Below are positions 30,695-63,351 of a stretch of DNA of 64,000 nucleotides, in pieces. Location of the stretch: NCBI RefSeq assembly GCF_002105155.1, contig NW_019029020.1, positions 1 to 64,000 on the forward strand, read 5' to 3'. The first letter of the stretch is position 1. Each line of letters opens with the position of its first letter. The stretch is from Lobosporangium transversale. Its lineage: Eukaryota. The position numbers were made by a program, and so were the translations under genes. Below the pieces are notes generated by a model. It saw only the letters and a list, made by a program, of their open reading frames with translations. It was not told the origin of the DNA and ran no database searches.

Positions 30695-30866
30695 GGTTGT
30701 CAAGAATGAGGGTTATGGAAATGAGGTGGGCCAAGGGTTTGTACAAGCAAAAAAAAAAAAAAAAAAAAAAAAAATCAAAACAAGCAAAATATAAGGTGGC
30801 TTTATTTAGCAGTCCTACGATACAGCGGCGCAGCACAAAAAGCCTCGTTTTATTACAATCTATCTT

Positions 30867-39800: not shown

Positions 39801-40533
39801 CTGCAGATCCAAAATATGACAGTCGATCGTTCCCTTCTATCTCATGACGATGATAATCCAGCTCATGCTCTGCTAACGCTGCTACAGGGACTGTCGTTGA
39901 GTGATGGTCAATGGTATAAAGCGAGTTGATTTCTGACTCTGAATCTCCTTGATAATGCAGTAAGGGCTCATGAACTGTTGTTGCCCTGGGCTTCATCAGG
40001 TGGCTACTATGGCCTCCCCTCGCTGTGCCAGTGAACGTTGTGCTGCTGTACTTCTGCTGTTGCTGTTGAACAGCTGTATCCGCACCTGTCCCTGTCCCTG
40101 TTCCATAGGCAAATGAAGCAGGAGTCGCATTGTCTATAAAGCTATAATTATGGTTTCGAGCTGCTGTTGTACGTCGGCCAGTAAAACTGGATGTGGAAAT
40201 AAGAGGAGGTGCTGGCCCATGTTGATAATGGGACTGACCAGAGAAATTAAAGTAACTACTACTACTGCCGTTGCTGCCATTCGACTCTGCGCTGGTGCCC
40301 TGTTGAAAAAGCGACAAACGGGTCGAGTCATTAGGTCCCAAGAAACTAGAGGAGGAATAGGTTGAGTTACGGAAAGAGAAGGAAGAAGTTGAGGATGGGA
40401 ATGGCTGATGTTGATGGATAACTGAGTGTTGTTGTTGCTGTGTATGGTTTCGCGGCAGACTTTGTTGCCTGGGCTTAGAGATGGTTCGAGCTGGATTCGA
40501 ACTGGACGTTGCTGAAGTTACACTAGCCATCAT
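30867..40533 (-). CDS. Large (~2,900-3,000 aa) protein: N-terminal multi-TM segment, long disordered/Pro-rich middle, C-terminal TTC39/Iml2 (DUF3808)-like TPR region; ~9 exons
   Basis: Iml2/TTC39-like motifs: EGIMACWNNEFGTAL, GGLQLRRAWKGY, HYGIGLFYFIVSIVPKSLLPALRTIG, RAPFAALFLLINY. The five upstream exons (40533 to ~33270) join by in-phase GT-AG introns with no intergenic gap. The single-gene model is an inference. Confidence 0.7.
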
Positions 40534-41294
40534 TTCAATTCAAGAGGCATAGACACTTCACTCAAAGATTGAAACCTGTCAAATCGATAATGTCGATTGC
40601 TATCTGAGCAAAGCTCGTAACTGTATGGTCTTAAAAAAAATGGGGGTGACTATTGATCTGACAAAAACGTTTATTCCTTCCAATACTTTTTCTTGTGGTA
40701 CTCCGCAATGGGTAAAAGTCTGGCCCAGCTAGGAGGGATAGGCGGAGCAAGGAAGTTCGGAAGAGAAATCAGGAAGTGAGTGCGGTCCAGCAAAAGGTGA
40801 AGAATAAAGACATGGACTCTTGGAAGAAGTAGCAAAAAAAAAGGTGTGTTGTTTTGTGTGCCTGTGCCATATCCGCATGTTATCAAAAGAGTAAAGAAGG
40901 GGTTCAGTGTAATCGAAGACAGGAATAAAAAAAGGGGTTATCAACAACATTGACATCAGCTGAGCACAAACAATATGTTGCTCTTCTTTTTTTTTTTTTT
41001 TTTTTTTTTGCGACTTGGTGCTTTGCAAAGCCCGCAACGCTGATATACAACTCCGTCACTCTACTTTCTATGCCTCCCCTTTTTTTTTTTTTTTTTTTTT
41101 TTTTGAATAGAGAGTACCTCTCACTAAGGCGAAGTAGAAGCATTATGTTTCCAGAAAACCAAGAGTTCAGCCCTCTATTCTATTTTCATGCAAATGTTAT
41201 CGTGATATCCCATAGGATAGTTATGAGCGACCATTAAGAGTATGGATATGTGATTGTATAAATGTTAATGTGCACCATGAAGATGTGTGTCTGT

Positions 41295-44089
41295 CTACAA
41301 ATCTAATCTATAGAGTTCGCCATACAAATGATGGACGAGGGTATCTAGTGGTCCTATTGAAAGTAGAAATGGATCGACAAAAAACGACGCGTCAACAATA
41401 TGAAAATTAAACATTCACACGCGAGCGTCTTCTTTCTTTATACCTGGCATCATGAAATTGCTACAGTGCCGCGTGCTTGCTACAGAGCCCTTAAATTCTC
41501 TGAGGAATTTTGTGTCTACGAACGAATATAATGGATCTTGCATCCTTGCTACCACAGTCTATGAGACCAATCAACCAAAATAAAAATAAAAAAAAAACAT
41601 ATTAATAAAAAATAGTAACAACAACACTATATTTGTATACTGCATACATTTTTTTTTTTTTTTTTTTATCATTTCCTTCTCATCTATACCTTGGTCAGTG
41701 TGTTCAAGAGAGCTGCTTCTTGATCCTTCAGCTCTTCAATTGATTTGTTGTATTTATCAGAATCATTACCACACGGCCTACGCCTGACACTGGTTTGGAC
41801 GAAGACTCTCAGGTCTGGATACTTTTCTTTGATGTAATCCAACATGTTAGTCAACACCCTCATGTACTGCTGTCTTAACAATTTCTTGCGCTTATCTCGA
41901 CTCTGTCTAATCTGATCTCGCTCGGCCTTCGACAGCGCTTTCATCTTTTTCGCCTCTTCATGACCTTTGCCAGCATCATTCGACCATCCGTCCATAAACC
42001 CCGTTGTCACATCCTTAGGATCATACTCCCAAAAATGTCCACTACTGATCATCACCAAAGGTTTGCGTTCAATATCTTCTTCACTTGTACTTTTACGCAT
42101 TGACGCTCTAGCTCGATGTTCTGCGGTATCACTCACAATCGCCTCAAGTAACTCAGTCCACTTCAAATTAATTATATCATGGTCCAGATCCGATCCATAG
42201 AGCATCTCTTCTTCCTCTTTATCGCCATCCTGATCTCCTAGATTATTATTGCTTCCAGTACTACTTTTTGATTGTTCTGAAGGAGCATTATCCGATCCTA
42301 TCCACCATTGCCACCAATACGATGACGTTGATGATGCAGCCGTCGTCGTCAAACCTTCAGATTTATCCCTCTCGTTTGCTTCCGTTTTACGGTAATGTTC
42401 GATTCGTGCTGGTTCACAAAGTAAGGCCATTCCAACGACCTTACAATCTGGATGGAGCCCATTAGCTTCCATTTCTGAAATCTCCTTTGCGGTTTTGACT
42501 GTATGCTTATGGATTGGATCCACTAAAAACATTCCAGGGTCCCAAAGAACATCTGAACGGATGAATGTGATTAAGCTCAAATTGGAGACACGGTCGACAA
42601 GTCGCATTTGACCAGGCTTAGCTTTCCTGTAGATAGATGGATGATGGTTTTGTTTTCTTGATCCAGGGGCGATCTTGAGCTCAATCACAGAAGGCATCTC
42701 CGACTCGATTCTGTATTCGAATCCTGCTACCAAGGCTTCTTTACCTTCTTCATATGCTGCTGATTTATCGTTTGTGTCTATTCTGCCTGTTGTGGGCTTG
42801 ATCCCAGCATCCATATAAAGCTGGTCCTGCATCCCAAGAATCATACATTCGATAGCAAGATATTCTTGCTCTAGAAACTTATCTCCTATCATTACGATAG
42901 GCGTTCGCTTGAGAATATCAACAAAGTCACTAACGTCCATCTCTGGTTGTTGACATTCGCTGAGAAACTGATTAGGATGCCTTGGATCCTGACGAGGACT
43001 TAGCTGCCACCGAAAGTTTTTGAGATGTTGTGCATATTGTAGGTCTGCCTGCAAGTAGCTGCTGCTGTTGAGGGGTGTTGTTGTAAAGTTGCTGTTGAAA
43101 CCATAAGATGGTGTCAAAAGGTATCGTTCATTCCATATGTGAGGTCGACAGCCATTTTGCCCATACCCTGTCCAACTCAAGTTTTGATCAACGGGTGTTG
43201 TAGTAACTTCTACTTTTTCTTGTTTGCTTTCTTTTACAGAAGTATAGATCCACTCTCCATTAGCCACATCCTCCAGGCTACATATCCTAACAGATGATGA
43301 GCTACTCTCATGAGATGGTAGATGTTTGGCTGGTTTATCGGATTCGTCTGTTGTTTCCCCCCCTTTGCTCGCTCCGAAAGGTGGATCTTCCTTTGCAGGG
43401 ACAGGCTGCTTCTTCCCCCAACCCTTATCTCTTCTAGATCCACTAGTTGGCCCTGTGTCTAATTGAAGGCCGTTAGAATTACTACTGTCAGTCCCTTCTC
43501 TCAACAATGGCACAGTACCCAAATCATTAGGATGCTGTAATTGGCTCAAAAGATATCCTCCAGAAAGTGCTGTCAAGACAACTGAGATCAGAATTAGGCT
43601 CATGAACCAACTCTTGCGCCACTTGCTGCTCACGGCGCCCGTGATCATCAAAGAAGTATACATCTGGATTTTGCGAATCATGTTGTATGCTGAACTTGTT
43701 ATTGTTGATGTTGTTGTTGTTGACGTTGATGATGAAGGGATACGGGTATATAGTGAAAACCCTAACCATGACCGACTATTATTGCTGTTGAGGTTATGAC
43801 GATGTTGTTGGGATCTATGATATCTTTTTTTCCAAGGGTTTCGTAGAAAAACTAGCCATGAATAGCCTCTTGTAGGTGCGCCATTAGCATCACTACTACT
43901 GCTGCTGGTAGCAACCGTACTGTTGATGGAATTCATAGTATCTTTGCTGTCACTCATTCGTCGTCCTAAACCCTGTCGCCGCTCTGGTTCATCGTCACTG
44001 TCGACATGATGAGCTACACGCTGTTCGACCTGACTACCAAAGAGACCTTCAATAGACCCACTTTCATACGAGTCAATCGAGATGCTCAT
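41295..44089 (-). CDS. Type II membrane protein with a PC-esterase / trichome-birefringence-like (SGNH) fold; catalytic motifs degenerate; 3 exons
   Basis: One TM segment (WFMSLILISVVLTALSGGYLL), then CSLEDVANGEWI, FRWQ...C, IVMIGDKFLEQEYLAIECM, LVMISSGHFW, RVFVQT, and a spliced C-terminus RHCSNFMMPGPLDTLVHHLY. These are colinear with the TBL motifs CD..GxW, WRWQP..C, FVGDS, NTGHWW and DCxHWCLPG.PDTW. Confidence 0.7.
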
Positions 44090-44494
44090 TCCGGTGTTTT
44101 TTTTTTATTTTTTTTATAATGCTTTCTTGCCTAATGTCAAACTGAAATTATGAAAAAAAAAAAAAAAAAAAAAAAGCTAAAAAGCAAAACAAACTCTGAC
44201 CGTGACAGCTCTGCATTCCAAGGATAACACTCATAACTAATGTTTTATTTTCTTTAATATTTATTGGCTATTGGTGCTGGTATATTGCAGAAGAATAAAA
44301 GTACACACTGCCATTGCCAATGCCAATATCGAATGAATAAGAATAATAAGGAAATAAATATAAGCAGACAAAAACCAAAAAAAATAAACTGGCACAAAAA
44401 TGAAAGCGGACAAAAAAGCAGGATAAAAACAAAACAATAATAATAAAGTAACAAAGTGAAATGACTAAATAGTAGTACTTTGGAAAGGAAATGA

Positions 44495-47400
44495 TTACTT
44501 CTTGTTGTTGTAAAAGTTAATCTTGGGATCTTGTTGAGGGTTATAGCTCAATCGCAGATTTGGAAATTCGAAATATGGATCATGTTGTGCGAGATCCGGA
44601 CAGTTCTTAGGCGGGAACTTGTTAATTGTCGCAATTAGCTCGTTGACACGAAGTGGTTTTGTGATATATTCGTCCTATAGGAAAAAAGAAAAACAAATTA
44701 GATCAAGAAATGAACTAGAAAGCAGGAAGTTATAGCACTTAGTACAATGCATAAAATAAAAACTTACCATGCCAGCAGCAAGACACTTCTCTCGATCACC
44801 AATCATAGCGTGTGCAGTCAAGGCGATAATGGGCAAGTGTTCGGTCCTGCCTTTGAGTAACTCTAGCTTTCTGATCTCCTGCGTAGCCTCAAATCCTCCC
44901 ATGATCGGCATCTGGACATCCATCAAAATCAAATCAAAGTGCTTGCTATCGTAGAACTCGACTGCCATCTTGCCGTTCGAGACAATCGTCACTTTGTGTC
45001 CAAACTTCTCCAAGATACGGACCGCAAGCTTCTGATTCACAACATTATCCTCTGCCAGCAAAATATGCAATGGAATCGCATGCTCAGCATCAGATGGCAA
45101 CGCTGATGCAGACTCGAAAGCAGGCAATAAGGCATTCATCAGATCAGGTAGTTGCACTGGTGGGTTAAAATAGCTGGCAATGCCCAATTCCTGGCAGACC
45201 TTCATGCTGATATAGGGTGTGGTCATGGACAACAGCACAATGGGCAGGAATCGAAGCATGGGGATCTCCTTGATCTTGCGGATATCCTTTACATTGTCAA
45301 CAATCACCACATCAAACATTGATTTCTCAGATGAAGAGCCCGAGCCCGAGCCCGGAGCTTGGACTAGAGTATGGGCTTGCTCGAGTGATGACATATACGT
45401 AGCCTTGAATTTGAGCTCCTCCAGCGTTCTTACGACTGAGCTAGAAATGACATCGTCGCGCATCGTTCCCAAATAAAGGATATGACGTCCAACATATGGC
45501 TTCGTCTTGAGATTGATCTGATCCACAGACATGGTACCTGTGTTAAACCGCACTGTAAAGAAGAATTGTGATCCTTTTCCGAAGATACTATTCACCCACA
45601 GATCACCTCCCATCAACGTCACCAGACGCTTGGAGATAGAGAGACCGAGCCCAGTACCACCGTACTTGCGTGTGGTGGAACCATCAGCCTGACAGAACGT
45701 ATCAAAGACGACTTCGATCTTATCACTTTGAATTCCAATTCCCGTATCCGAGACACAGAATTGAAGTTCAACACCAACATCCGTTTTGTTTTTGCAGACA
45801 CAGTCTAGAACAACACTACCCTCGGTTGTAAACTTGATGGCATTTCCGATCAAGTTAGTGATGACTTGGCGAAGGCGAAGTGGATCGCCCACAAGTTGGT
45901 CAGGGAAATCGTTATGGACATTGTAAATCAAATCCAGTTTCTTCTGATGAGCTTTCACGGCCAGAGTCTTAAGTACTCCAAATGCCTGGGTTCTCAACGA
46001 GAATGGAGCTTGCTCAATTGTCATCTTACCAGCCTCAACTACGTAGTTTTTTTTTTTTTATAAAAAAAAAAAAAAAAAAAAGGAAGAAAAAAAAAAATTT
46101 ACATAAATATTTCATTATAGACAAAAAATTCAAATCACCAGCTACAATGCTGTAACAAAAGAGCATCAACTTACTCTTTGAGATATCAAGAATATCATCA
46201 ATAATCGTCAGGAGTGAATGGGCCAAGTGACTAACAATCACCAAGTTTTCACGTTGTTGACGGGTAAGCTCAGTTTCCAGAGTGAGACTGGTCATTCCGA
46301 TGATTCCGTTCATGGGGGTTCTAAATAAAAAGAAGAAGAAAAAAAAAGTTAGGTGCTTTCAAAAATTACAGTAAGGACTTTAAAACATAATAAAAAGTGC
46401 AGTAATTACCTAATCTCGTGCGACATGTTTGCCAAGAACTCGGATTTGGATCGATTGGCAAGCTCAGCGGCTTCACGAGCAGCGGTGTTCTTTTGAATAC
46501 TCTCGCGAAGGTTGTAAACCATCTGATTGATCTTGGTCTTAAGCGAATCCATCTCTCCGGAGGCCTCAACAGTGATAAACTGAGTGAAATCACCATCCGT
46601 TGCAGCAGTCGAAATGGAGGCAAATGCACGTACTTGTGCTGTCAAATTGCTAGCCATTGTATTGACGTTTGATGTGATTTCCTTCCATGTTCCACGTACA
46701 TCCTCCACCTGTGCTTGCACGCCCAATTTGCCTTCGGTACCGACCTCTCGAGCGACACGCGTTACCTCATTAGCAAACATGGAGAGCTGATCCACCATGA
46801 TATTGATCGTGTTCTTAAGGTCCAACATCTCACCCTTGACCTCGACTGAAATCTTCTTGGAAAGATCACCTCGAGCAACGGCTTTACTGACATCGGCAAT
46901 ATCACGTACTTGTGCTGTAAGATTGGCAGCCATGGTGTTGACGTTGTCAGTCAGCTCCTTCCAGGTACCATCAACCCCTGTGACTTCAGCCTGACCTCCT
47001 AGACGACCTTCTGTACCGACTTCACGAGCTACACGAGTTACCTCGGCGGCGAATGTTCTCAGCTGTTCGACCATAGAGTTGACAGTAATCTTCACCTCAG
47101 AGATCTCTCCTTGTGCTTCGACATCAATGGTCTTACTCAAGTCTCCTGCTGCGACAGCGGTGGTAACTTCAGCGATGGATCGTACCTGTGTTGTCAAGTT
47201 CGAGGCCATGGTGTTGACATTATCTGTGAGTTCTTTCCAAGTTCCATCAACACCTTTGACAATGGCTTGACCTCCAAGTTTGCCTTCTGTTCCGACTTCA
47301 AGACTGACTCTGGTAACCTCGGTGGCAAACTCTTGCAGCTGGTCCACCATGATGTTGATCGTGTTCTTAAGATCCAACATCTCACCCTTGACCTCAACTG

Positions 47401-50400
47401 AAATCTTCTTGGACAGATCACCTCGAGCGACGGCTTTACTGACATCAGCGATATCACGTACTTGTGCTGTAAGATTGGCAGCCATGGTGTTGACGTTGTC
47501 AGTCAGCTCCTTCCAGGTACCATCAACTCCTGTAACCTCAGCCTGGCCTCCTAGACGACCTTCTGTACCGACTTCACGAGCCACACGAGTTACCTCGGCA
47601 GCGAATGTTCTCAGCTGCTCCACCATAGAGTTGACAGTAATCTTCACCTCAGATATTTCTCCTTGTGCTTCGACATCGATAGTCTTACTCAAATCACCTG
47701 CTGCGACAGCGGTTGTGACATTGGCGATGGATCGTACTTGAGTTGTCAAATTGGCAGCCATGGTGTTGACATTGTCTGTGAGGTTCTTCCAAGTACCGCT
47801 AACATCCTTAACAACAGCCTGTCCTCCAAGTTTGCCTTCAGTTCCGACCTCTAGACTGACTCTGGTGACCTCAGTGGCAAACTCTTGAAGCTGGTCCACC
47901 ATGATGTTGATCGTGTTCTTAAGATCCAACATCTCACCCTTGACCTCGACTGAAATCTTCTTGGACAGATCACCTCGAGCGACGGCTTTACTGACATCAG
48001 CAATATCACGTACTTGTGCTGTAAGGTTGGCAGCCATGGTGTTGACGTTGTCAGTCAGCTCCTTCCAGGTACCATCAACCCCTGTGACTTCAGCCTGGCC
48101 TCCTAGACGACCTTCTGTACCGACTTCACGAGCCACACGAGTTACCTCGGCAGCGAATGTTCTCAGCTGCTCCACCATAGAGTTGACAGTAATCTTCACC
48201 TCAGATATTTCTCCTTGTGCTTCAACATCGATGGTCTTGCTTAAGTCTCCTGCTGCGACAGCGGTGGTAACTTCAGCGATGGATCGTACCTGTGTTGTCA
48301 AGTTCGAGGCCATGGTGTTGACATTATCTGTGAGTTCTTTCCAAGTTCCATCAACACCTTTGACAATGGCTTGACCTCCTAGTTTACCCTCGGTACCGAC
48401 TTCAAGACTGACTCTGGTGACTTCAGTGGCGAACTGTTGCAGCTGGTCCACCATAATGTTGATCGTGTTCTTAAGATCCAACATCTCACCCTTGACCTCA
48501 ACTGAAATCTTCTTGGACAGATCACCTCGAGCGACGGCTTTACTGACATCAGCAATATCACGTACTTGTGCTGTAAGGTTGGCAGCCATAGTGTTGACGT
48601 TGTCAGTCAGCTCCTTCCAGGTACCATCAACCCCTGTGACTTCAGCCTGACCTCCTAGACGACCTTCTGTACCGACTTCACGAGCCACACGAGTTACCTC
48701 GGCAGCAAAGGTCCTCAGTTGTTCGACCATAGAGTTGACAGTCTTCTTCACCTCAGAGATCTCTCCTTGTGCTTCAACATCGATGGTCTTACTCAAATCA
48801 CCTGCTGCCACAGCGGTTGTGACATTGGCGATGGATCGTACTTGAGTTGTCAAATTAGCAGCCATGGTATTGACATTGTCTGTGAGGTTCTTCCAGGTAC
48901 CACTGACATCCTTGACAACAGCCTGTCCTCCAAGTTTGCCTTCAGTTCCGACCTCAAGACTGACTCGGGTGACTTCAGTGGCGAACTGTTGCAGCTGGTC
49001 CACCATGATATTCATCGTGTTCTTGAGATCCATCATTTCTCCTTTGACTTCGACAGAAATCTTCTTGGACAGATCACCTCGAGCGACGGCTTTACTGACA
49101 TCAGCAATATCACGTACTTGTGCTGTAAGATTGGCAGCCATGGTGTTGACGTTGTCAGTCAGCTCCTTCCAGGTACCTTCAACACCTTTGACTTCAGCCT
49201 GGCCTCCTAGACGACCCTCTGTGCCGACTTCACGAGCTACACGAGTTACCTCGGCAGCGAATGTTCTCAGCTGTTCGACCATAGAGTTGACAGTAATCTT
49301 CACCTCAGATATTTCTCCTTGTGCTTCGACATCGATGGTCTTACTCAAGTCTCCTGCTGCAACAGCGGTGGTAACCTCAGCGATGGATCGTACCTGTGTT
49401 GTCAAATTGGCAGCCATGGTGTTGACATTGTCTGTGAGATTCTTCCAAGTGCCGCTAACACCTTCGACCTTAGCCTGTCCTCCAAGTTTACCCTCGGTGC
49501 CGACCTCAAGACTGACTCGGGTGACTTCAGTGGCAAACTCTTGTAGCTGGTCCACCATGATGTTGATCGTGTTCTTAAGATCCAACATCTCACCCTTGAC
49601 CTCGACTGAAATCTTCTTGGAAAGATCGCCGAGAGCAACAGCTTTACTAACGTCCGCAATGTCACGAACTTGTGCAGTAAGATTGGCAGCCATGGTGTTG
49701 ACGTTCTCAGTCAGTTCCCTCCAAGTACCAGCAACACCTGTGACCTCAGCCTGGCCTCCTAGACGACCTTCTGTTCCTACTTCACGTGCGACACGGGTGA
49801 CCTCGGCAGCGAACATCCTAAGTTGCTCCACCATGGAGTTGACAGTAATCTTAACTTCGGAGATCTCTCCTTGTGCTTCGACATCGATGGTCTTGCTCAG
49901 GTCTCCAGCTGCGACAGCGGTGGTAACCTCGGCGATGGATCGTACTTGAGTTGTCAAATTGGCAGCCATGGTGTTGACATTGTCTGTGAGGTTCTTCCAG
50001 GTACCACTAACATCCTTGACAACAGCCTGTCCTCCAAGTTTGCCTTCAGTTCCGACTTCAAGACTGACTCGGGTGACCTCAGAGGCGAACCGTTGTAGCT
50101 GATCTACCATGATATTCATCGTGTTCTTAAGGTCCATCATTTCTCCTTTGACTTCGACAGAAATCTTCTTGGACAGATCACCTCGAGCGACAGCCTTACT
50201 GACGTCGGCAATATCACGTACTTGTGCAGTAAGGTTGGCAGCCATGGTGTTGACGTTGTCAGTCAGCTCCTTCCAGGTACCTTCAACACCTTTGACTTCA
50301 GCCTGGCCACCTAGACGACCTTCTGTACCGACTTCACGAGCCACACGGGTGACCTCGGCAGCGAACATCCTAAGTTGCTCCACCATGGAGTTGACAGTAA

Positions 50401-53400
50401 TCTTCACCTCAGAGATCTCTCCTTGTGCTTCGACATCGATGGTCTTACTCAGGTCTCCTGCTGCGACAGCAGTCGTAACATTGGCGATGGATCGTACTTG
50501 TGTTGTCAAATTGGCAGCCATGGTGTTGACATTGTCTGTGAGGTTCTTCCAAGTGCCACTAACACCTTCAACCTTAGCCTGTCCTCCGAGTTTACCCTCG
50601 GTACCGACCTCAAGACTGACTCTGGTGACCTCAGTGGCAAACTCTTGAAGCTGGTCCACCATGATGTTGATCGTGTTCTTAAGATCCAACATCTCACCCT
50701 TGACCTCGACTGAAATCTTCTTGGAAAGATCGCCGAGAGCAACAGCTTTACTAACGTCCGCAATGTCACGAACTTGTGCAGTAAGATTGGCAGCCATGGT
50801 GTTGACGTTGTCAGTCAGCTCCTTCCAGGTACCATCAACACCTTTGACCTCAGCCTGGCCTCCTAGACGACCTTCTGTTCCTACTTCACGAGCTACACGA
50901 GTTACCTCGGCAGCGAATGTTCTCAGCTGTTCGACCATGGAGTTAACAGTAATCTTCACCTCAGAGATCTCTCCTTGTGCTTCGACATCAATAGTCTTAC
51001 TCAAGTCACCTGCTGCGACAGCGGTGGTAACCTCAGCGATGGATCGTACTTGAGTTGTCAAGTTAGAGGCCATGGTATTGACATTGTCTGTGAGTTCCTT
51101 CCAAGTACCGCTGACATCCTTAACAACAGCCTGTCCTCCAAGCTTACCCTCGGTACCGACTTCAAGACTGACTCGGGTGACCTCAGAGGCGAACCGTTGT
51201 AGCTGATCTACCATGATATTCATCGTGTTCTTAAGGTCCATCATTTCTCCTTTGACTTCGACAGAAATCTTCTTGGACAGATCACCTCGAGCGACAGCCT
51301 TACTGACGTCGGCAATATCACGTACTTGTGCAGTAAGGTTGGCAGCCATGGTGTTGACGTTGTCGGTCAGTTCCTTCCAAGTACCTTCAACACCTTTGAC
51401 TTCAGCCTGGCCTCCTAGACGACCCTCTGTGCCGACTTCACGAGCTACACGAGTTACCTCGGCAGCGAACATCCTAAGTTGCTCCACCATGGAGTTGACA
51501 GTAATCTTCACCTCAGAGATCTCTCCTTGTGCTTCGACATCAATAGTCTTACTCAAGTCACCTGCTGCGACAGCGGTGGTAACGTTAGCAATGGATCGTA
51601 CCTGTGTTGTCAAATTGGCAGCCATGGTGTTGACATTGTCTGTGAGGTTCTTCCAAGTGCCACTAACACCTTCGACCTTAGCCTGTCCTCCGAGTTTACC
51701 CTCGGTACCGACCTCAAGACTGACTCGGGTGACTTCAGTGGCAAACTCTTGAAGCTGGTCCACCATGATGTTGATCGTGTTCTTAAGATCCAACATCTCA
51801 CCCTTGACCTCGACTGAAATCTTCTTGGAAAGATCGCCGAGAGCAACAGCTTTACTGACATCAGCAATATCACGTACTTGTGCGGTCAAATTAGCAGCCA
51901 TGGTGTTGACATTCTCGGTCAACTCTTTCCAGGTGCCATCAACTCCTGTAACCTCGGCCTGACCTCCTAGACGACCTTCTGTTCCGACTTCACGAGCCAC
52001 ACGAGTTACCTCGGCAGCAAAGGTCCTCAGTTGTTCGACCATAGAGTTGACAGTCTTCTTCACCTCAGAGATCTCTCCTTGTGCTTCGACATCGATGGTC
52101 TTGCTCAGGTCTCCTGCTGCGACAGCGGTGGTAACCTCGGCGATGGATCGTACTTGAGTTGTCAAATTAAAGGCCATGGTATTGACATTATCTGTGAGCT
52201 CCTTCCAAGTACCGCTGACATCCTTAACAACAGCCTGTCCTCCAAGTTTGCCTTCAGTTCCGACCTCAAGACTGACTCGGGTGACTTCAGTGGCGAACTG
52301 TTGCAGCTGGTCCACCATGATATTCATCGTGTTCTTAAGGTCCATCATTTCTCCTTTGACTTCGACAGAAATCTTCTTGGACAGATCACCTCGAGCGACA
52401 GCCTTACTGACGTCAGCAATATCACGTACTTGTGCTGTAAGATTGGCAGCCATGGTGTTGACGTTGTCAGTCAGCTCCTTCCAGGTACCTTCAACACCTT
52501 TGACTTCAGCCTGGCCACCTAGACGACCTTCTGTTCCGACTTCACGAGCTACACGAGTTACCTCGGCAGCGAATGTTCTCAGCTGTTCGACCATAGAGTT
52601 GACAGTAATCTTCACCTCAGATATTTCTCCTTGTGCTTCGACATCGATGGTCTTACTCAGGTCTCCTGCTGCAACAGCGGTGGTAACGTTAGCAATGGAT
52701 CGTACCTGTGTTGTCAAATTGGCAGCCATGGTATTAACATTGTCTGTGAGGTTCTTCCAAGTGCCACTAACACCTTCAACCTTAGCCTGTCCTCCGAGTT
52801 TACCCTCGGTTCCGACCTCAAGACTGACTCGGGTGACCTCAGTGGCAAACTCTTGAAGCTGGTCCACCATGATGTTGATCGTGTTCTTAAGATCCAACAT
52901 CTCACCCTTGACCTCGACTGAAATCTTCTTGGACAGATCGCCGAGAGCAACAGCTTTACTAACGTCCGCAATGTCACGAACTTGTGCAGTAAGATTGGCA
53001 GCCATGGTGTTGACGTTCTCAGTCAGTTCCCTCCAAGTACCAGCAACACCTGTGACCTCAGCCTGGCCTCCTAGACGACCTTCTGTTCCTACTTCACGTG
53101 CGACACGGGTGACCTCGGCAGCGAACATCCTAAGTTGCTCCACCATGGAGTTGACAGTAATCTTAACTTCGGAGATCTCTCCTTGTGCTTCGACATCGAT
53201 GGTCTTGCTCAGGTCTCCAGCTGCGACAGCGGTGGTAACCTCGGCGATGGATCGTACTTGAGTTGTCAAATTGGCAGCCATGGTGTTGACATTGTCTGTG
53301 AGGTTCTTCCAGGTACCACTAACATCCTTGACAACAGCCTGTCCTCCAAGTTTGCCTTCAGTTCCGACTTCAAGACTGACTCGGGTGACCTCAGAGGCGA

Positions 53401-56085
53401 ACCGTTGTAGCTGATCCACCATGATGTTCATTGTATTCTTGAGATCCATCATTTCTCCTTTGACTTCGACAGAAATCTTCTTGGAGAGATCACCTCGGGC
53501 GACTGCTTTACTGACGTCGGCAATATCACGTACTTGTGCGGTCAAATTAGCAGCCATGGTGTTGACATTGTCAGTCAGTTCCTTCCAGGTACCTTCAACA
53601 CCTTTGACTTCAGCCTGACCTCCTAGACGACCTTCTGTACCGACTTCACGAGCCACACGAGTTACCTCGGCAGCAAATGTCCGCAGTTGTTCGACCATGG
53701 AGTTGACAGTCTTCTTCACCTCAGAGATCTCTCCTTGTGCTTCAACATCGATGGTCTTACTCAAATCACCTGCTGCGACAGCGGTCGTGACATTGGCGAT
53801 GGATCGCACTTGAGTTGTCAAATTGGCAGCCATGGTATTGACATTGTCTGTGAGGTTCTTCCAAGTGCCGCTAACACCTTCGACCTTAGCCTGTCCTCCG
53901 AGTTTACCCTCGGTACCGACCTCGAGACTGACTCTAGTAACCTCAGTGGCAAACTGTTGCAGCTGATCCACCATGATGTTCATCGTGTTCTTGAGATCCA
54001 TCATTTCTCCTTTGACTTCGACAGAAATCTTCTTGGACAGATCACCTCGAGCGACAGCCTTACTGACGTCAGCAATATCACGTACTTGTGCTGTAAGATT
54101 GGCAGCCATGGTGTTGACGTTGTCAGTCAGCTCCTTCCAGGTACCATCAACACCTGTCACCTCGGCTTGGCCTCCTAGACGACCTTCTGTACCGACCTCA
54201 CGTGCGACACGTGTGACTTCTGCGGCAAATGTTCTAAGCTGATCCACCATGGTATTCATAGTCTCCTTCAGTTCAAGTATTTCTCCCTGGACAGGGACAC
54301 TAACTTTCTTCGTCAAATCTCCGCATGCGACGGCTTTACAGACTGTGGCGATATCTCGAATATGGCCTGTGAGATTCGAAGCCATCAAGTTGACATTGTC
54401 CGTGAGTTCTTTCCACGTTCCGCTGACATCTTTAACGTGGGCCTGACCACCGAGTTTTCCTTCTGTACCTACTTCCAGACTCACGCGGGATACTTCTGTG
54501 GCAAACTCCTGCAGTTGATCTACCATGGTGTTGATTGTGTGCTTCAAGTCTCCCATCTCTCCCTTGACTTCAACAGAAATCTTCTTGGACAGATCACCTT
54601 TTGCGACAGCTTTACTAACACTTGCAATATCTCTGACCTGCGCTGTGAGGTTGGCGGCCATGTGGTTGACATTGTCAGTCAGCTCCTTCCAGGTTCCATC
54701 AACGCCTTTGACATGTGCCTGGCCTCCTAGGCGACCCTCAGTACCGACTTCATGTGCCACCCGAGTAACTTCAGAGGAAAATGAACGCAATTGATCAACT
54801 AGTTGAAATATAATATTTAGAGAAAAAAGATTAGACACTGACGAAAGAAGTAAAAATAGAGTGGGGCGGTCGACAAGTGTGTTTGAAGTATAAATAAAAG
54901 AGTCCTTAATCATGCTCACTTACCCATCGTGTTGATCGTATTTTTCAATACAAGTGTTTCACCTTGGACAGCAACTGTGATCTTTCGGCTGAGATCACCA
55001 TGAGCGACAGCTGTACAGACAGAGGCAATATCACGTACTTGCTCTGAATGGATGATGCTCATGGTATTCAGGTTGGACACAAATTGTTTCCAGATACCGT
55101 GCTCGTTCTTCATACTCGCTTGGAAGCCCAATTTACCTTGCACTCCCTGGGCTGTAACCTGGATGACCTCATTTGTAAATGTGGATAGCTTATTAAGCAT
55201 TTGATTGATGGAAACGACTAGGTCTGACTGACTGCAGGCGGGGTTGCTGCATTTTATCCGTACAGCCAGGTCGCCTCTAACCACTGCAGCTGCGAGCAAG
55301 GCACATTGATGGATGCAGTCAACACATGGGGCGATACCCGTAGTTGCGGTAGTTGTCTTTGGTGTTGGTGCAGCAGCAGTTGTCGTAGTTGTTGTCGTCA
55401 TAAGATTGGATAAGATGGGGGTGCGCAAAGGTGAGATTGGTGTGGTGTCCTTGACAGCTGCGGCTGTTGTGATGGGTGATGAGACCATGGTCTGGCCATG
55501 TCCGGATGGCTGACCATTCAGATCCGTAGGTTGAACAAAGCAAAGCGGGCCATTGTCGGTTGCTTCGATCGAATGTGCTGCTAGTGCTGATGCAATCGGC
55601 TTGGGACGATGAATAGTGACTGATGATTGATCAGACACTTGGGTATGAGCGGCCCTTGCTTGCGAGAGCGTATGCAGTGGGTGGGATGTGCGCTCCTGTT
55701 GTATACTTGAGTGAGTAGGAATATGATTGACAAATTCCCAATTACCATCGTTCAACCGAAAAGACGAAGCTGAACCTGGGGGCGAGAGTGAGTCGACAGG
55801 GGGGGTGAGAATAGGAGGAGCGAGGACAATGTCGGATACGACAGGATGAAGGGGCTTCCGGGTGCGTGCAAGTTCCTGCTCCATCAAGAGCATCTTTTTC
55901 ACTACCCGCTGTAATGAGGCATCGACCTTTTGAATATATTGTGGTGTGGTGGCATCAACAAAATCAAGTGGAAGAGGGTGTGGCGAGACAAAGGAGAAAT
56001 AAACTGGGTCAAAGTCCTTGTCCTGCGCTAACAGGTCGAAGACGTTGCCGACATGCTTAATGTATTCCTCTTCGTACGTGGTCAT
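44495..56085 (-). CDS. NIK1: Giant group III (Nik1/Os-1 type) hybrid histidine kinase, ~3,715 aa: poly-HAMP array, HisKA, HATPase, degenerate receiver, receiver. Exons 56085-54924, 54798-46410, 46320-46175, 46038-44768, 44674-44495
   Basis: H-box [18 protein letters not shown] (split by an intron); N-box [22 protein letters not shown]1 [10 protein letters not shown]2 [21 protein letters not shown]; receiver [11 protein letters not shown]...LILMDVQMP...YITKP. The exons sum to 11,148 nt (3,716 codons including stop) and all junctions are GT-AG and in phase. Confidence 0.95.
46500..54798 (-). repeat. Coding tandem array of 276-bp (92-aa) poly-HAMP units: 30 copies arranged as 15 A/B dimers
   Basis: The GTEG motif runs from aa 59 to aa 2727 of the 2837-aa ORF (29 x 92 aa). 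Type A is RLGGQ...[21 protein letters not shown]; type B is KLGGQ...[21 protein letters not shown]. Confidence 0.97.
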
Positions 56086-56403
56086 TGTGAAGAGGAAAAG
56101 AGAAAAAAAGGAAGAAGAAGGAGAAGAAACAATGGATGGGGAGGATGGGGGATGCTGTAGCGGTTGTATTAATAGGTAGAAGGAGTGGTGGAAGGGTTGG
56201 CGTCAGGTATTTGTGAAGGGCACCAAGGAGTAGAGATGGAAAGGAAAGTAGAATAGAAGGTTAGAAACCACAGAAACAAAGCATGTATGCAATTCAGTTA
56301 TAAAAAAAAAAAAAAAAAAAAAAAAGCACAGGCAACACACATACACTCTCACACTCTCCCTCGTTCACTCACTCTGGGAAATAAAAAAGGGAAGAGAGAA
56401 TGT

Positions 56404-56456
56404 AATGATAATAACAATAACAATAATAATAATAATAATAATAATAATAGTAATAA
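56404..56456. repeat. (AAT/AAC)n microsatellite upstream of the histidine kinase
   Basis: aataacaataacaataataataataataat... Confidence 0.9.
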
Positions 56457-57071
56457 AGAGGTAGAGAGAAAGGATGGGGGGGGGAATGGGTGCGAGGACG
56501 ATGAAAAGAAAGGAAGAGGTGAGGAAAGAGAAAGAAGAGGGAATAAAAATAAGGATGGAGCCAGGGGGGCGGAAGATAAAATAAAATTGGAGAATAAAGA
56601 ATGGACTGCCCTGACTGTTATGAATGTGTGTTTGGGGAGTGGAGAGGAAAGAAAGAAAAGAAAAAAAAAAAAAAAAAAAAAAAGTTGCCTTGCCTGCAAA
56701 AGCGAAGGGAAGTTCTGTTTTCACTTGAGCATGCACACACAACACACAAACGCAAATTAATAATCCGTCTTGTGGTCGTCTTTGTCAATAAGGAGAGGTT
56801 AAAAGATGGGAAAAAGAGAGAGAGAGAGACAGAAAAGGATTAGTGCGATATACGGATTTCCTTTAAAAAAAACAGAAAAGGAAAGAAAAATGTGATTTGC
56901 TGATCATACAGGGACAATAACAAAAGGAAAGGAATTGAGAGGAAATGGAATGAATCTGTTTCGAGGTAGTGGTGAGATAGTGCTTTGTGAAAAATAGTTT
57001 AGAATGAAGAAAGTATTAGTTGTTAGTAGAGTTGAGGGAAGTAGTCGGGTTGGAGCATGGGAGCAGAAAAG

Positions 57072-57108
<37 letters not shown>

Positions 57109-58744
57109 GCAAGAGCATGCTAATCCTATCCTGTCCAATTCACACACAAAACAAGCGAAACGCATCACTCCTAAATCCCTATTCATCATCAAATCACATT
57201 TCTGTCGTCTCTGAACCATTCAAGACCTCTTCTGGCACAGGCACGGAACACTAAGGCTCTCTTCACACACACAAACCATTGTGCATGCATGCATGCAAGC
57301 AAGCACAACTGCACAAAAATGCGGAAACAAAAAAAAAAAAAAAACAATAGCACATGGATTACACAACAATCAAATCAGGCTATCAAGCAAGCGATGTCAA
57401 ACATTTCTTGACCCTTATTTTGGTCCGCGCATGTTCACAGCTGCCTCATTCAAACACCATGAGCATGTTGCACTACAGCAAGCTAATGCAAAAAGTATAA
57501 AACTGTCGAGCCCATCCAGACATGAAAAAATTCAATAAAAGAAAACCCCCGTACAACCAATGAATATAAAAATAAAGATCTTCTGAACCTGATCATTGCA
57601 CCTCTGAGCCATCCGTCCAACCATTTTTTTTTTTTTTTTTTTTAAAAGAGAGCTTTTTTTTTATACATATTGTTGTCGTTGCACAAGAACCAGCACATCC
57701 ACACACCGACAAGACACAGCATTTCACAAATACAATTCAGCCTGCCTGAGATCTCCTGGATCGTCTCTATACCCTCACAACTTCTTTATCACCTCTTTAA
57801 AATGGAAATAAAAAATAAAAAAGATTTTTTCCCCTAATGCTTTGCCCTTTAGCGCTTTACTTAGCCTATTAAACATGTAGTAGTATGAACCATACTAATC
57901 ATCAAGGAACATTGTACGGTGTGGACGGAAGAGGAAAAAATGGCCGAGTCTGGACCCAAAATTTGCTTTTTTTTTTTTTTTTAACTCTTTTTGTTCAACC
58001 AAGGAAAAAAGGGGCATGCAATGTGTCTCTTGAACCTTTGTCTGTCTACCATATTGGCCCCCGCCCGTGCGTGTGTGGGGTGAGAGCCCCTTAAAGTAGC
58101 TTCCAACAACCTTTGCGGCCTTTATATTGCATTTATCCCCCCCATCATTCTCCTCCAATCGTTTTTTTTAAAAGTTGGTCTTTAAACCTGAACCCTGAGA
58201 GTGGATCCCGATCCATTCAACAAATGCACCAACATAATCAACGACAACAACAACGATAGAGAATAAATAAATCACTGATGGGTCAGGATAGGATCAAAAT
58301 GGAGATGTTTAGAAGACATGCAGGGGAATAAAATATCAAAAGCTGTAATCCATCTTTTGCATGAACATGTTGATGTTGTGTACAAAACAAAAAAAAAAAA
58401 AAAAAAAAAAACTCGTTCAGCCTGAAGCCTGAGGAACCCGTGTTACAAAGGAAGACACCTTGAATGTTATTGCACAATCATACTCCCTTTTTTTCGATGC
58501 AAGGTAACATGCATGTTGGATGAGAAAATGAAGCATTAATCTGCTCACCCAAGCAAAGAGCATGTTCCCAAAAAGGTCATTACGGCCAGTTTCACCTTCC
58601 AGAATCCATGCGGACACGCGGCAAAAAAAAAAAAAAAAAAAAAAAAAAATACCGCCTTTTCGTCTGCCTCGTCCATGTCTTTTGATAGTTTTTTAATATT
58701 TATTTCTGCTTGAGATGTTCGAGAACATTAAAACAACTCAAAGA

Positions 58745-58795
58745 GACAAAGACAAAGACAAGACAAGACAAGACAAGACAAGACAAGACAAGACA
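58745..58795. repeat. (GACAA)n pentanucleotide microsatellite
   Basis: gacaaagacaaagacaagacaagacaagacaagacaagacaagacaagaca. Confidence 0.9.
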
Positions 58796-59971
58796 GCGCC
58801 TCCTCCCCTCCTCCTCCTCCCCTATTTTTTATCCATACAAAGATGTGCCAGCATGGTCTGTCTAGTTTTGCCTAATGCTCAACCCTTGATGTCACTCGAA
58901 GGCGCTTCGGAGACAAAAAAAAAACTGATGCGCATGGATGGCAGCATGAATATGGGAACTGATGTTCTCAATCTCAAAAGTAAACACACGCACACACACC
59001 CCTCAGAATTTGTGCAACCCAAGAAAGAAAAAAAAAGAAAAAAATTCTCTGTGTCTGGCATGCAGACAACTTTTTCCCTTGTTTCCCGTTTTTTCAGTTC
59101 ATCACTTTCATTTGCCAGCTTAGGGATAGCACAAGGAAAAAGGAAAGAATGAAGAAAAAAAAGAAAAAAGAAAAGAAAAGAATAAAAGAAAAGAATAAAA
59201 GAAAAGAGAAAAAAAACAAAAAAAGTAAAGAATAGACAAAATAGGTAGAATACAAGGGGAAACAGACACAAAAGAGAGTGTGTGAAAGTAAGACGCACGC
59301 ATCGATCCTTATCGAAATAGTCCCTCTTCCATCTTACCAGCTAGCTGACTGTGCAAAAAGAGAAAGGATGATGTTCAAGTGTCGTTGCTCCTGCCCGAGT
59401 GGAGAGAGATCAGTTTCCAACTCGATAGATGCGTTTTTTCTTTCTTTTGTCTATCCGGTTTCAATGGATAGGTATTAATTCGGATATAATCAAAAATCCT
59501 GGCTTTTGTCCGTTTGTGTTGATTAAAAGAATAAAGTTCCTGATCGAGAAGCGTCGCCAGTCTAGAGTGATTAAATACAAAGAAAGAAGGGGAAGTAAAA
59601 AAGAAAGAAAGAAAGAAAAAAAAACGCAGTCAATCAGATGGGATAAAAAAAAAAAGAGAGCGAGAGAGAGAGAGAGAGAGAGAGAAAGAGGGAGTACAGA
59701 ATTCTGAGGAGGAAAAGTAAAGCATCGACATCAAGCATGACATAGTTTAGCTTAGCATAGCGTCTGGCATGTAATGAAAGAATGCCAGGGCCAAAAAAAA
59801 GTACCTGTTCTGCCCAATCCCAATGTTCCTGAGTGCCGCTCAATAAATTATTTTTAATCACACGTGGCAAAGACGAGGATCCACTACTTTATGGAAAACA
59901 TGTACATGAATAAATAATAATCAATCGTACAGAATGAGCACAAACGAAAGAGCTTTAGTTATATCCCGTTT

Positions 59972-60002
<31 letters not shown>

Positions 60003-60149
60003 GTTTGCCAATGCATGTTGATTATTACACTGTGAAGTGATGAAATGTTGCACTACCAGAGATTAGACGGATAGACAAACACACAACGAAAAAAAATAAA
60101 AAAAAATAAAAAAAAATAAAAAGTTACAATGATGTTCTACAAATGTAAT

Positions 60150-60331
<182 letters not shown>

Positions 60332-61098
60332 TGACAATGGGATGAAGCACTCGAATGATTGAGACTAAGCCAAGTCTGCAATCTCAATTCGAACAGAAGT
60401 AAAGTGTGTGGCTGGGTGATTATTGAAGGAAACGATGCGAGGGGTGCAGAAAATGTGTCCTAAAGATTAAGAAAGAGAGAGGACATTAAACATGGCCCTC
60501 TGCTTCCCTTCATTCAATCCTCTGCGTTATTTCTCTCAGGGCAATTGCAAATGCAAATGAACCAATGCTGAAGCTGAGCTTGTAAACTCGCTTTTGTAAC
60601 GTTAAGATTCGTGGGGTGCGTGACAATCTCATTTAGGGCATGTTGCTCTCCCGAATGTGGTTATTTTGTGTTACCCTTTTAGCCACCAAATGAAATTACA
60701 AACTAAGATAATTTTTTTTTCTCCCCCTTTTTTTTTATTTTTTGGAAACAGCTCTTAGGGATGGGATCAGTTGTGGCGGATAGACATGTTTCCTGATTTC
60801 TATCCTCTTTGGATGTAGTAGCATCTACACCCATTAGTATCATTACCATTATCAAAAAATATATAAAAATAAAAATAAAAATAAAAAAAAGTTCTCGATA
60901 AGCTTCTTTTGGTTATCACCAGAAAAGGATAGACCAAATAGGGATCAAATGAGTGTTGAAAGTAGATCATTACTTTGATTAGCAACCCAGATAGTCCAAT
61001 AGGTCTAATAGTTTTCATGCTTCTTGACGACACTGATACTAAGCAAATTATATGCAGCAAACTTAAGCTATTTATTCCCTATTGTTGTCTACCTCTTT

Positions 61099-61130
<32 letters not shown>

Positions 61131-61470
61131 CGCCCAACTTTTTGGGTGAAGCACAAACAAATTCCATTTGGCGGTTACAGTTGCATTTTCCCGCCCTTTT
61201 TATTTTTTTTTTAGAACAATTGCTTCTATCTGGAGCTTATGTACACGTACTTCTTCTGTCGTATATGATTCTCAGATGCAGTATTTTCCTTGAGTTAATG
61301 TAGACAGACTTGGGTTCAGACATGTAACAGAATCTGCATACATTTTATGTACGGTGTTCACATTGTACATATTCATCGAAACATTTTAGGTACGGCGTGC
61401 ATACGTGCATGCAGAGATGAGAGAACGGTGCAAGATGACGACGATGACGCGTTTCGCATCCAAGTATATA

Positions 61471-61510
<40 letters not shown>

Positions 61511-62627: not shown

Positions 62628-62658
<31 letters not shown>

Positions 62659-63319: not shown

Positions 63320-63351
<32 letters not shown>

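What the first reader, a model, noticed from the sequence alone, without database searches (positions are those of the whole stretch)
44495..56085. Giant group III histidine kinase with ~31 poly-HAMP repeats
Seen: an intact ~3,715-aa hybrid kinase with 30 in-frame 92-aa repeats in a single 8,389-nt exon, plus one degenerate repeat in exon 1. No TM segment or other sensor domain is apparent. Established: characterised fungal group III kinases (Neurospora Os-1/Nik-1, Candida Nik1, Blastomyces Drk1) carry only about 5-7 such repeats. In them the array is the input module for HOG signalling and for phenylpyrrole/dicarboximide sensitivity, and deleting repeats changes output. Inference: an array several times longer could act as a long cytosolic coiled rod with a different sensing threshold (osmotic, crowding or mechanical), making this a length-tunable two-component sensor.
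Basis: partly seen in the sequence, partly recalled or inferred. Interest (0 to 1): 0.88.

Follow-up and report, generated by a model that had tools for sequence, protein, structure and literature searches.

The report
Giant 63-HAMP fungal stress kinase
This soil-fungus gene really encodes a spliced 3,715-residue kinase of the known fungal osmotic-stress sensor family, with 31 repeats of its relay module instead of the usual 5-7; similar giants occur in many early-branching fungi, where the long predicted rod, topped by a conserved cysteine cluster that may bind zinc, likely tunes how the kinase responds to stress.

Summary
Observation confirmed to the base: five exons, 3,715 aa, 31 92-aa repeats, 30 of them in one 8,389-nt exon. 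It is not an assembly artefact. 29 of the 30 exon-2 repeats differ in DNA, contig depth follows predicted copy number, all four introns are spliced in one public run, and dN/dS between repeats is 0.05-0.07. Each repeat is two HAMPs, so the array holds 63, twice the longest I saw named in print (AskB, 31). It is a group III (Nik1/Os-1-type) hybrid kinase of a Mortierellaceae fungus. It is not unique: relatives carry 21-30 repeats (Mortierellaceae), up to 26 (Mucorales), 32-38 (Kickxellales) and 24-27 (Dacrymycetes). Arrays of about 17 were drawn in a 2019 supplement, and length tuning was proposed in 2026. Not found in print: arrays of 30+ repeats, their lineage-wise expansion, a strict A/B 184-aa period, and a CxxC...C cluster on the first HAMP (98 of 108 zygomycete-grade proteins, 0 of 61 others). 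Function is inferred. This scan had earlier noted only bacterial relatives.

The parts
44495..56085 (-). Gene for a 3,715-aa group III hybrid histidine kinase; 5 exons, 4 GT-AG introns
   Evidence: Gene model; all four introns skipped in run X5 contigs; public protein P0021 equals residues 1502-3715 exactly
54924..56085 (-). Exon 1 (1,162 nt): N-terminal helices, low-complexity linker, first HAMP, most of the divergent first repeat
55861..56076 (-). N-terminal helical region (res 4-75), conserved among Mortierellaceae; no Pfam family; followed by a predicted disordered linker (res 76-250)
   Evidence: Model helices 4-20 and 49-75, pLDDT 55-78; similar N-termini in P0001, P0005, P0016; Pfam
55180..55326 (-). 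First (D1-type) HAMP, res 254-302, with the cysteine cluster C254-x2-C257, C261, C279, C284; candidate metal or thiol site
   Evidence: Motif counts; HAMP-like by language-model features (0.96); four-helix dimer model. Metal binding not tested
54782..55179 (-). Repeat 0 (divergent 91-aa di-HAMP, res 303-393), interrupted by intron 1 (54799-54923)
46502..54781 (-). Repeats 1-30: 30 x 276 nt di-HAMP units in strict A/B alternation (552-nt, 184-aa higher-order unit)
   Evidence: 24 columns separate A from B without exception in repeats 3-29; match to AskA poly-HAMP structure 9TRK, E 3.9e-80
46410..54798 (-). Exon 2 (8,389 nt), holding repeats 1-30 and the H-box
46418..46420 (-). Codon of the phospho-accepting His3181 in the H-box; the dimerisation domain continues through exon 3 (46175-46320)
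   Evidence: Motif map; same H-box text as the ascomycete osmosensor P0284
45551..45913 (-). ATP-binding (HATPase_c) domain with N, G1, F and G2 boxes
   Evidence: Pfam PF02518 E 8e-28; motifs
45131..45523 (-). Likely pseudo-receiver domain (inferred from position and sequence; borders approximate)
   Evidence: Sequence; Drk1 has one at this place (PMC6433957 figure legend); not detected by Pfam as a separate stretch
44618..45088 (-). Receiver domain with Asp3606 (codon 44918-44920) and the conserved acidic, Thr and Lys motifs; split by intron 4
   Evidence: Pfam PF00072 E 8e-22

Best explanation
This is an intact, spliced group III (Nik1/Os-1-type) hybrid histidine kinase whose 63 chained HAMP domains are predicted to form one dimeric four-helix rod that likely sets how readily the kinase flips its output to the HOG stress pathway. 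Shown: the gene, its splicing, 31 distinct repeats under purifying selection, intact catalytic motifs, no membrane anchor. From family knowledge: group III kinases are soluble dimers that phosphorylate the phosphotransfer protein Ypd1 at rest and switch to phosphatase activity under osmotic or fungicide stress, which activates HOG (PMC13452588); kinase-type di-HAMPs pack as one continuous, conformationally coupled bundle (PMC13446029). Inferred: the rod is about 140 nm long (helices of 28 and 31 residues in the model, each spanning two HAMP layers, about 4.4 nm per repeat); stress shifts the packing equilibrium along it; the last, most conserved repeat passes that state to the kinase; and the extra units change threshold or cooperativity, which would explain why this family keeps 21 or more. 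The array grew by unequal crossing-over of a 552-nt A/B unit with patchy homogenisation (inferred), separately from the long arrays of other lineages. The cysteine cluster on the first HAMP likely binds a zinc ion that caps the free end of the bundle (untested).
For: Architecture and motifs. Fungal group III clade, SH-aLRT 100 against seven bacterial poly-HAMP kinases; 53-54% identity over about 618 C-terminal residues to P0284 and P0269. Repeat matches AskA structure 9TRK. Dimer model of res 248-387: score 0.78, best of 3 controls 0.00, runs agree in at least 85% of contacts, pLDDT about 80; the mark was reached by 21 of 30 solved one-chain pairs and 0 of 23 single chains (eukaryotes 17 of 29 and 0 of 30). 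A like complex is solved, so this may be memory of AskA. It reproduces a Trp332-Gly271 cross-chain contact like the Trp contact described for AskA. dN/dS 0.054 (A-A, 91 pairs) and 0.069 (B-B, 78 pairs). All 13 full-length Mortierellaceae proteins (window included) have 21-31 repeats, and 0 of 25 family hits of 679-2,000 aa hold a kinase. 495 of 502 inner repeats from 31 proteins have their nearest match in the same protein or lineage, while the last repeat's best match in another lineage is a last repeat in 29 of 29 cases.
Against: No functional data for any kinase with a long array. Low dN/dS shows that each repeat must fold, not that the number matters. In A. fumigatus TcsC the last HAMP alone suppresses the aberrant activity (PMC13452588), so inner repeats could be dispensable. 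Counts vary widely among close relatives with 98-99% identical kinase cores (21-31), which fits drift. The first protein search ranks by array length, so it over-represents long arrays (best 120 of 7,996 scored). No full-length transcript or protein was seen. HOG-pathway partners could not be checked because no genome is held.
Confidence: 0.55

Rival explanations
1. Same kinase, but the length is nearly neutral: unequal crossing-over lets the inner repeats wander in number, only the first and last repeats matter, and selection merely removes misfolding changes.
For: Counts differ freely among close relatives and between paralogues in one genome (M. alpina 30 and 23; Absidia cylindrospora 23, 18, 16). 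The A/B order is strict here but irregular in most relatives (6 of 121 long arrays alternate, all Mortierellaceae). The last repeat is the one conserved by position. HAMP6 alone restrains TcsC.
Against: No complete short version was found in Mortierellaceae although unequal crossing-over would make one easily (0 of 25). A 399-kDa protein is costly. Long arrays arose or persisted in at least six fungal lineages. Deleting repeats changes output in yeasts.
Confidence: 0.3
2. The array is a transmission line or spacer: the real input is the cysteine cluster (zinc release, oxidation or aldehyde adduct) or the N-terminal helical domain, and the roughly 140-nm rod carries that signal to the kinase or holds it at a distance from an anchor.
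For: The CxxC...C cluster with a fourth Cys/His is kept in 98 of 108 Mucoromycota and Zoopagomycota proteins, while CxxC occurs 0 times in 334,064 array residues. C254, C257, C279 and C284 are not among the confident interface residues of the dimer model. A HAMP cysteine of Drk1 (C392) mediates part of the fludioxonil response (PMC6433957). The N-terminus of TcsC is essential and targets it to the nucleus (title of PMC11253588).
Against: Long-array basidiomycete kinases (0 of 9), Entomophthorales (0 of 2), bacterial or unnamed ones (0 of 52) and the one named ascomycete seen lack the cluster, so arrays work without it. Short-array Glomeromycotina have it (4 of 6), so it is not tied to length. 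Zinc was not scored and no coordinates were available. A structural cap is the simpler role.
Confidence: 0.12
3. The copy number is an assembly artefact, or most repeats are spliced out.
For: No contig spans the array. One 482-nt block is duplicated exactly (repeats 6-7 and 18-19). Skips between repeats would be hard to see in short-read contigs.
Against: 29 of 30 repeats are distinct, with mostly synonymous differences. Depth follows predicted multiplicity, and contig ends match unitigs simulated from the window (46838-46925, 51020-51125, 52140-52229). Runs from 4 studies lay on it with no other letters. Copy-specific pieces of repeats 10, 11, 14 and 29 are in run X5, with no joints in the array. 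Relatives have 30-38 repeats.
Confidence: 0.03

Closest known systems
Fungal group III hybrid histidine kinases (Neurospora Os-1/Nik-1, Candida Nik1, Aspergillus TcsC, Blastomyces Drk1, Debaryomyces DhNik1)
   Same: Soluble; 92-aa HAMP repeats, then HisKA, HATPase, likely pseudo-receiver and receiver. Same H-box text and 63-66% kinase-core identity to an ascomycete 'histidine kinase osmosensor' (P0284, 5 repeats) and a basidiomycete 'nik-1 (Os-1p)' relative (P0269, 6 repeats).
   Different: 31 repeats against 5-7 (PMC5159414); near-identical inner repeats in strict A/B order; a cysteine cluster on the first HAMP that P0284 and P0269 lack. The characterised proteins themselves were not fetched; their features come from papers.
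Group III kinases of early-diverging fungi drawn in PMC6324907 (Kabbara et al. 2019) supplement: Mortierella elongata, Umbelopsis ramanniana, Ramicandelaber brevisporus
   Same: Long HAMP arrays: runs of about 13-18 HAMP labels on those pages; my counts for the Umbelopsis and Ramicandelaber proteins are 17 each, so one box equals one 92-aa repeat.
   Different: This protein has 31. The main text names HAMP once and says only that the number is variable; no mention of 30+, of higher-order periods or of a cysteine cluster in the passages I read.
Myxococcus xanthus AskA (21 HAMPs; PDB 9TRJ, 9TRK) and AskB (31 HAMPs): kinase-type poly-HAMP arrays (PMC13446029)
   Same: Same D1 + (C-D2)n di-HAMP build, conserved Trp and Gly, strong sequence match (E 3.9e-80 to 9TRK), expansion by intragenic amplification.
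   Different: 63 HAMPs; fungal kinase core only about 40% identical to bacterial poly-HAMP kinases; no GAF domain, which many bacterial hits carry; a separate clade.
Uncharacterised giant relatives in public databases: Mortierella alpina P0001 (30 repeats), Coemansia P0009/P0011/P0121 (32, 32, 37), Martensiomyces P0008 (32), Linderina P0004 (38, irregular spacing), Calocera P0017 (27)
   Same: Same architecture and comparable or larger arrays.
   Different: Arrays are lineage-specific in sequence. The window's array is the most regular alternating one (lag-2 minus lag-1 identity 0.24; next 0.18).

Membership tests
Fungal group III hybrid histidine kinase | Tandem HAMP repeats in the N-terminal region (PMC4965123) | tested here: met
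   31 repeats; Pfam HAMP and HAMP_2
Fungal group III hybrid histidine kinase | Conserved group III H-box signature with the phospho-His | tested here: met
   H-box at res 3175-3192 has the same text as P0284 (named osmosensor) and differs by one residue from P0269 (named nik-1 relative). The paper's own alignment figure was not visible
Fungal group III hybrid histidine kinase | Hybrid core: HisKA, HATPase_c and C-terminal receiver with Asp and Lys | tested here: met
   Pfam PF02518 and PF00072; N/G1/F/G2 boxes, Asp3606; PF00512 on the identical protein P0021
Fungal group III hybrid histidine kinase | No transmembrane segment | tested here: met
   Highest hydropathy window (1.78, res 251-269) is the first HAMP helix in both models; next 1.66 in HisKA. 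Hydropathy scan only
Fungal group III hybrid histidine kinase | Kinase domain groups with Nik1/Os-1-type proteins | tested here: met
   13-row clade (11 named fungal, 2 unnamed) with P0269 and P0284, SH-aLRT 100, against 7 bacterial rows; no other fungal HK group was in the tree; P0261 left out (no H-box match)
Fungal group III hybrid histidine kinase | Signals through Ypd1 to HOG; confers phenylpyrrole sensitivity | not testable with these tools
   Needs expression tests; no genome held to look for partners
Kinase-type poly-HAMP array (AskA-like) | N-terminal D1 HAMP followed by tightly joined di-HAMP repeats with conserved junction Gly and Trp | tested here: met
   42 invariant columns including W and G across 30 repeats; 9TRK match; D1 helices pair in the dimer model
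Bacterial AskA/AskB kinases proper | Bacterial kinase core, GAF domain, several receivers | tested here: not met
   No GAF; fungal clade; about 40% core identity. It works like them in the array but is not a member
Cys4-type zinc site (candidate, first HAMP) | Four Cys/His ligands in tetrahedral geometry that bind zinc | tested here: inconclusive
   Conservation met; geometry not readable (no coordinates, zinc not scored); binding not testable here

The most novel reading that the evidence does not exclude
Zygomycete-grade fungi run a group III kinase as a roughly 140-nm, 63- to 77-HAMP allosteric rod with a dedicated input at its far end: a zinc/thiol cysteine switch on the first HAMP that senses redox, aldehyde or metal stress and sends the signal down the array, whose length, expanded separately in several lineages and varied between paralogues, sets the gain. 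That would supply the upstream input that poly-HAMP kinases are said to lack.
Probability: 0.15. Interest if true: 0.85.

Novelty: new variant of a known kind. Interest (0 to 1): 0.5.

Why it matters
What poly-HAMP arrays do is an open question: the 2026 structural paper says their role 'remains unclear' and suggests length tuning. This gene and its relatives give a natural series from 5 to 38 repeats on one conserved kinase, with paralogues of different length in single genomes and an 11-kb allele built from interchangeable A/B units, so the idea can be tested in yeast with existing assays. The cysteine cluster offers a concrete candidate input or cap. Group III kinases mediate phenylpyrrole fungicide action, and fludioxonil is listed for use against Rhizopus (PMC5159414), whose kinases carry 16-21 repeats here, so array length bears on how that drug class acts in Mucorales. 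Practical point: the public model identical to this gene (P0021) is truncated to 18 repeats, and many family models break inside the array, so surveys undercount these giants.

Tried and rejected
Assembly expansion: rejected. Uniqueness of about 30 repeats: rejected. Transmembrane anchor: rejected. Bacterial origin of this gene: not supported (introns; fungal clade). Own-genome search: no genome held, so paralogues and HOG partners in this organism were not examined. No run was on record as RNA; X5 counts as RNA only because its contigs skip the introns. Summed depth per bin was not used as copy number. The kinase exons have no cover in X1 and X2 and little in X4; the tool filters records, so this is no finding. 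Fold search of the exon-1 model gave nothing at E <= 0.001; best hits were Aer2 poly-HAMP structures (E 0.013-0.26). The longer-protein search stops at 5,000 residues, so still longer arrays cannot be excluded. The 46-row tree has several long branches and open forks; I use it only for the Mortierellaceae clade (100/100). The cysteine pattern was drawn from the same sequences it was counted on; the strict version gave 91 of 108, the relaxed one 98 of 108, and a separate search found it in 15 of 86 mostly unnamed proteins. Literature searches that found no account of 30+ fungal arrays, of a cysteine/zinc site or of concerted evolution. Papers not held: Mina et al. 2024, Meena et al. 2010. Not read: Defosse et al. 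2015, Dunin-Horkawicz and Lupas 2010, the Ewers 2015 thesis. Any of these may give counts for long arrays. The accession list in the PMC13446029 supplement was cut, the figures of all papers were not visible, and the supplements of the Ancylistes preprint were not seen.


Full report
Observation. The gene lies on the minus strand from 56085 to 44495. Four GT-AG introns (125, 89, 136 and 93 nt) give an 11,148-nt CDS and a 3,715-aa, 399-kDa protein with no internal stop. Exon 2 is 8,389 nt and holds 30 exact 92-aa repeats (res 394-3153); a divergent 91-aa repeat (res 303-393) lies almost wholly in exon 1. Contigs of public run X5 skip all four introns at the modelled borders, so both ends of the gene are transcribed and spliced as modelled; the tool lists X5 as RNA only by guess.

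Is the copy number real? Among the 30 exon-2 repeats, 29 differ in DNA and 22 in protein; same-type copies differ by 27-33 of 276 nt, mostly at silent sites, and the longest exact duplication is 482 nt. An assembler that over-expands a repeat gives identical copies, not these. Four runs from four studies lay on the stretch with no differing letters; one may be the source of the assembly. For 12 array pieces from the three DNA runs, depth relative to single-copy flanks followed the 31-mer multiplicity computed from the window, and contig ends coincided with unitigs simulated from it. In X5, 172 contigs match the array at 100%, among them copy-specific pieces of repeats 10, 11, 14 and 29, with no joints (8 of 172 pieces were shown). 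No contig spans the array, so the order of inner repeats and a single full-length transcript remain unproven. dN/dS is 0.054 among A repeats and 0.069 among B repeats: every copy is kept at the protein level.

What it is. The C-terminal part has the H-box with His3181, N, G1, F and G2 boxes, a likely pseudo-receiver and a receiver with Asp3606. The H-box reads as in a named ascomycete osmosensor (P0284, 5 repeats) and nearly as in a basidiomycete nik-1 relative (P0269, 6 repeats); the last repeat to the receiver is 53-54% identical to them, and the kinase core groups with them against bacterial poly-HAMP kinases. A public partial protein labelled Lobosporangium transversale (P0021) equals residues 1502-3715 exactly, and the core sits in a Mortierellaceae clade at 100/100. 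That public model starts inside repeat 13 and shows only 18 repeats. The repeat matches the AskA poly-HAMP crystal structure 9TRK (E 3.9e-80). By PMC13446029 (read: outline, first parts of the Introduction, 2.2 and 2.5, Conclusions, 4.2, passages, supplement with cut cells), such arrays are one D1 HAMP plus di-HAMP repeats, so this protein has 1 + 2 x 31 = 63 HAMPs; the longest array named in what I read is AskB with 31.

How unusual. The search with exon 2 scored 7,996 candidates and listed the best 120, which favours long arrays; 89 of these carry fungal names (lineage assignment from source names and my recall of taxonomy). Repeat counts in full-length proteins: Mortierellaceae 21-31 (13 proteins, window included), Mucorales and Umbelopsis 10-26 (50), Kickxellales 32-38 (5), Dimargaritales and Ramicandelaber 17-24 (3), Basidiobolus 18-20 (2), Glomeromycotina 8-9 (5), Entomophthorales 9 (2); Dacrymycetes 24-27 and Mycena 14-20. 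Of 240 proteins fetched, 5 have 31 or more, 13 have 25 or more and 57 have 20 or more. The named bacterial hits reach 18. Proteins above 5,000 aa could not be searched. So this is among the longest, not the longest. In print, the supplement of PMC6324907 (read: passages and supplement part 3 as machine text) already draws runs of about 13-18 HAMP boxes for Mortierella, Umbelopsis and Ramicandelaber kinases without comment, while reviews state 5-7 (PMC5159414, passages) or a variable number (PMC13452588, passages and first part of section 12). Ten searches found no account of 30+ arrays, but key subscription papers were not held or not read.

How the array grew. Repeats 3-29 alternate strictly between two types that are 69% alike to each other and about 95% within type; 24 columns separate them without exception. 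The working unit is thus 184 aa (four HAMPs, 552 nt), with a weaker 368-aa period in the DNA and patchy near-identical blocks, as expected from unequal crossing-over and conversion (inference). Only 6 of 121 long arrays alternate in this way, all Mortierellaceae, one being the truncated record of this same gene; the same two types occur in irregular order in M. alpina and Linnemannia. Across 31 proteins, 495 of 502 inner repeats have their nearest match in the same protein or lineage, whereas the last repeat's best match in another lineage is a last repeat in 29 of 29 cases. This fits separate expansions, or continual homogenisation of older long arrays, between fixed ends; the data do not tell these apart.

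The first HAMP (res 254-302) carries C254-x2-C257, C261, C279 and C284. A CxxC...G...[IVL]xC pattern at this place, always with a fourth Cys or His nearby, is present in 98 of 108 Mucoromycota and Zoopagomycota proteins with enough N-terminus (Mortierellaceae 34 of 37, Mucorales 50 of 51, Kickxellales 5 of 6, Basidiobolus 3 of 3, Dimargaritales/Ramicandelaber 2 of 3, Glomeromycotina 4 of 6, Entomophthorales 0 of 2), in 0 of 9 Basidiomycota and 0 of 52 bacterial or unnamed proteins, and CxxC never occurs in 334,064 array residues (pattern drawn after seeing the sequences). The segment models as two HAMP helices with pLDDT 88-95 and as a four-helix dimer (score 0.78, best control 0.00, at least 85% contact agreement, pLDDT about 80; may be memory of AskA). 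C261 is in the interface; the other four cysteines are not listed there, which says little by the tool's own caution. By HAMP topology the start of helix 1 and the end of the connector meet at the top of the bundle, so a zinc site capping the rod is plausible (inference). Zinc binding was not tested. A HAMP cysteine matters for Drk1's fungicide response (PMC6433957, passages), and the TcsC N-terminus is essential (PMC11253588, title and passages).

Mechanism. Most likely (0.55) the protein is the usual cytosolic kinase/phosphatase switch upstream of Ypd1 and HOG, and the array is a coupled rod of about 140 nm (estimate from helix lengths) whose length tunes the response. In favour of length being kept: all 13 complete Mortierellaceae proteins have 21 or more repeats, and a search with the N-terminus among 679-2,000-aa proteins listed 25 family members, none with a kinase (best 120 of 1,075 shown). 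Against: counts drift among near-identical kinases, and one HAMP suffices to restrain TcsC. Neutral length gets 0.30, a cysteine or N-terminal input sent down a spacer 0.12, artefact 0.03. Length tuning was proposed in PMC13446029; it is untested.

Verdict. A real, expressed, giant member of a known family; a new variant, not a new kind. What remains is a lineage-wide set of 20-38-repeat kinases beyond what I found described, a regular four-HAMP period, and a conserved cysteine cluster, together making an open question directly testable. Interest 0.5. Earlier notes of this scan concern bacterial AskA-type relatives only. Other papers seen as passages only: PMC4965123, PMC7643160, PMC4904012, PMC5285503 and bioRxiv 10.1101/2023.12.22.573025.

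Noticed in passing
P0021 (public record) against window 44495-51457: The public model identical to this gene starts inside repeat 13 (res 1502) and so shows 18 of 31 repeats; many Mortierellaceae models are partial and break in the array.
   Followed up: yes
P0121, P0004, P0008, P0009, P0011, P0394, P0398: Kickxellales kinases of 4,268-4,990 aa carry 32-38 repeats (up to about 77 HAMPs) plus long C-terminal extensions; longer than the window's protein.
   Followed up: partly
P0017, P0040, P0047, P0067 and other Mycena proteins: Basidiomycetes also have long arrays (Dacrymycetes 24-27, Mycena 14-20) without the first-HAMP cysteine cluster; some have a short CxxC motif further upstream.
   Followed up: partly
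P0001 and P0012: Two giant paralogues with the same M. alpina locus-tag prefix (30 and 23 repeats) have 98% identical kinase cores; several Mucorales also hold 2-3 paralogues of different length.
   Followed up: partly
window 32241-40539 (-): A run of long open frames (324, 381, 1,140, 483 and 353 aa). Only 33216-34358 has a Pfam match (Iml2/TPR39); the 1,140-aa frame has no Pfam or Atlas hit. Possibly one or two very large genes.
   Followed up: partly
window 41687-44104 (-): 806-aa open frame just downstream of the kinase gene, no Pfam match.
   Followed up: partly
window 27020-30712 (-), 18562-19974 (+), 13832-17001 (-), 3562-4425 (+): Ordinary genes: NAT10-type RNA acetyltransferase, a translation elongation factor 1-alpha-like frame (name recalled from its N-terminus), a RhoGAP, a histidine phosphatase.
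   Followed up: no
window 56100-64000: About 8 kb upstream of the kinase with no convincing long coding frame, low GC (34-39%) and many simple repeats, including (GA)90 at 60150-60328.
   Followed up: no
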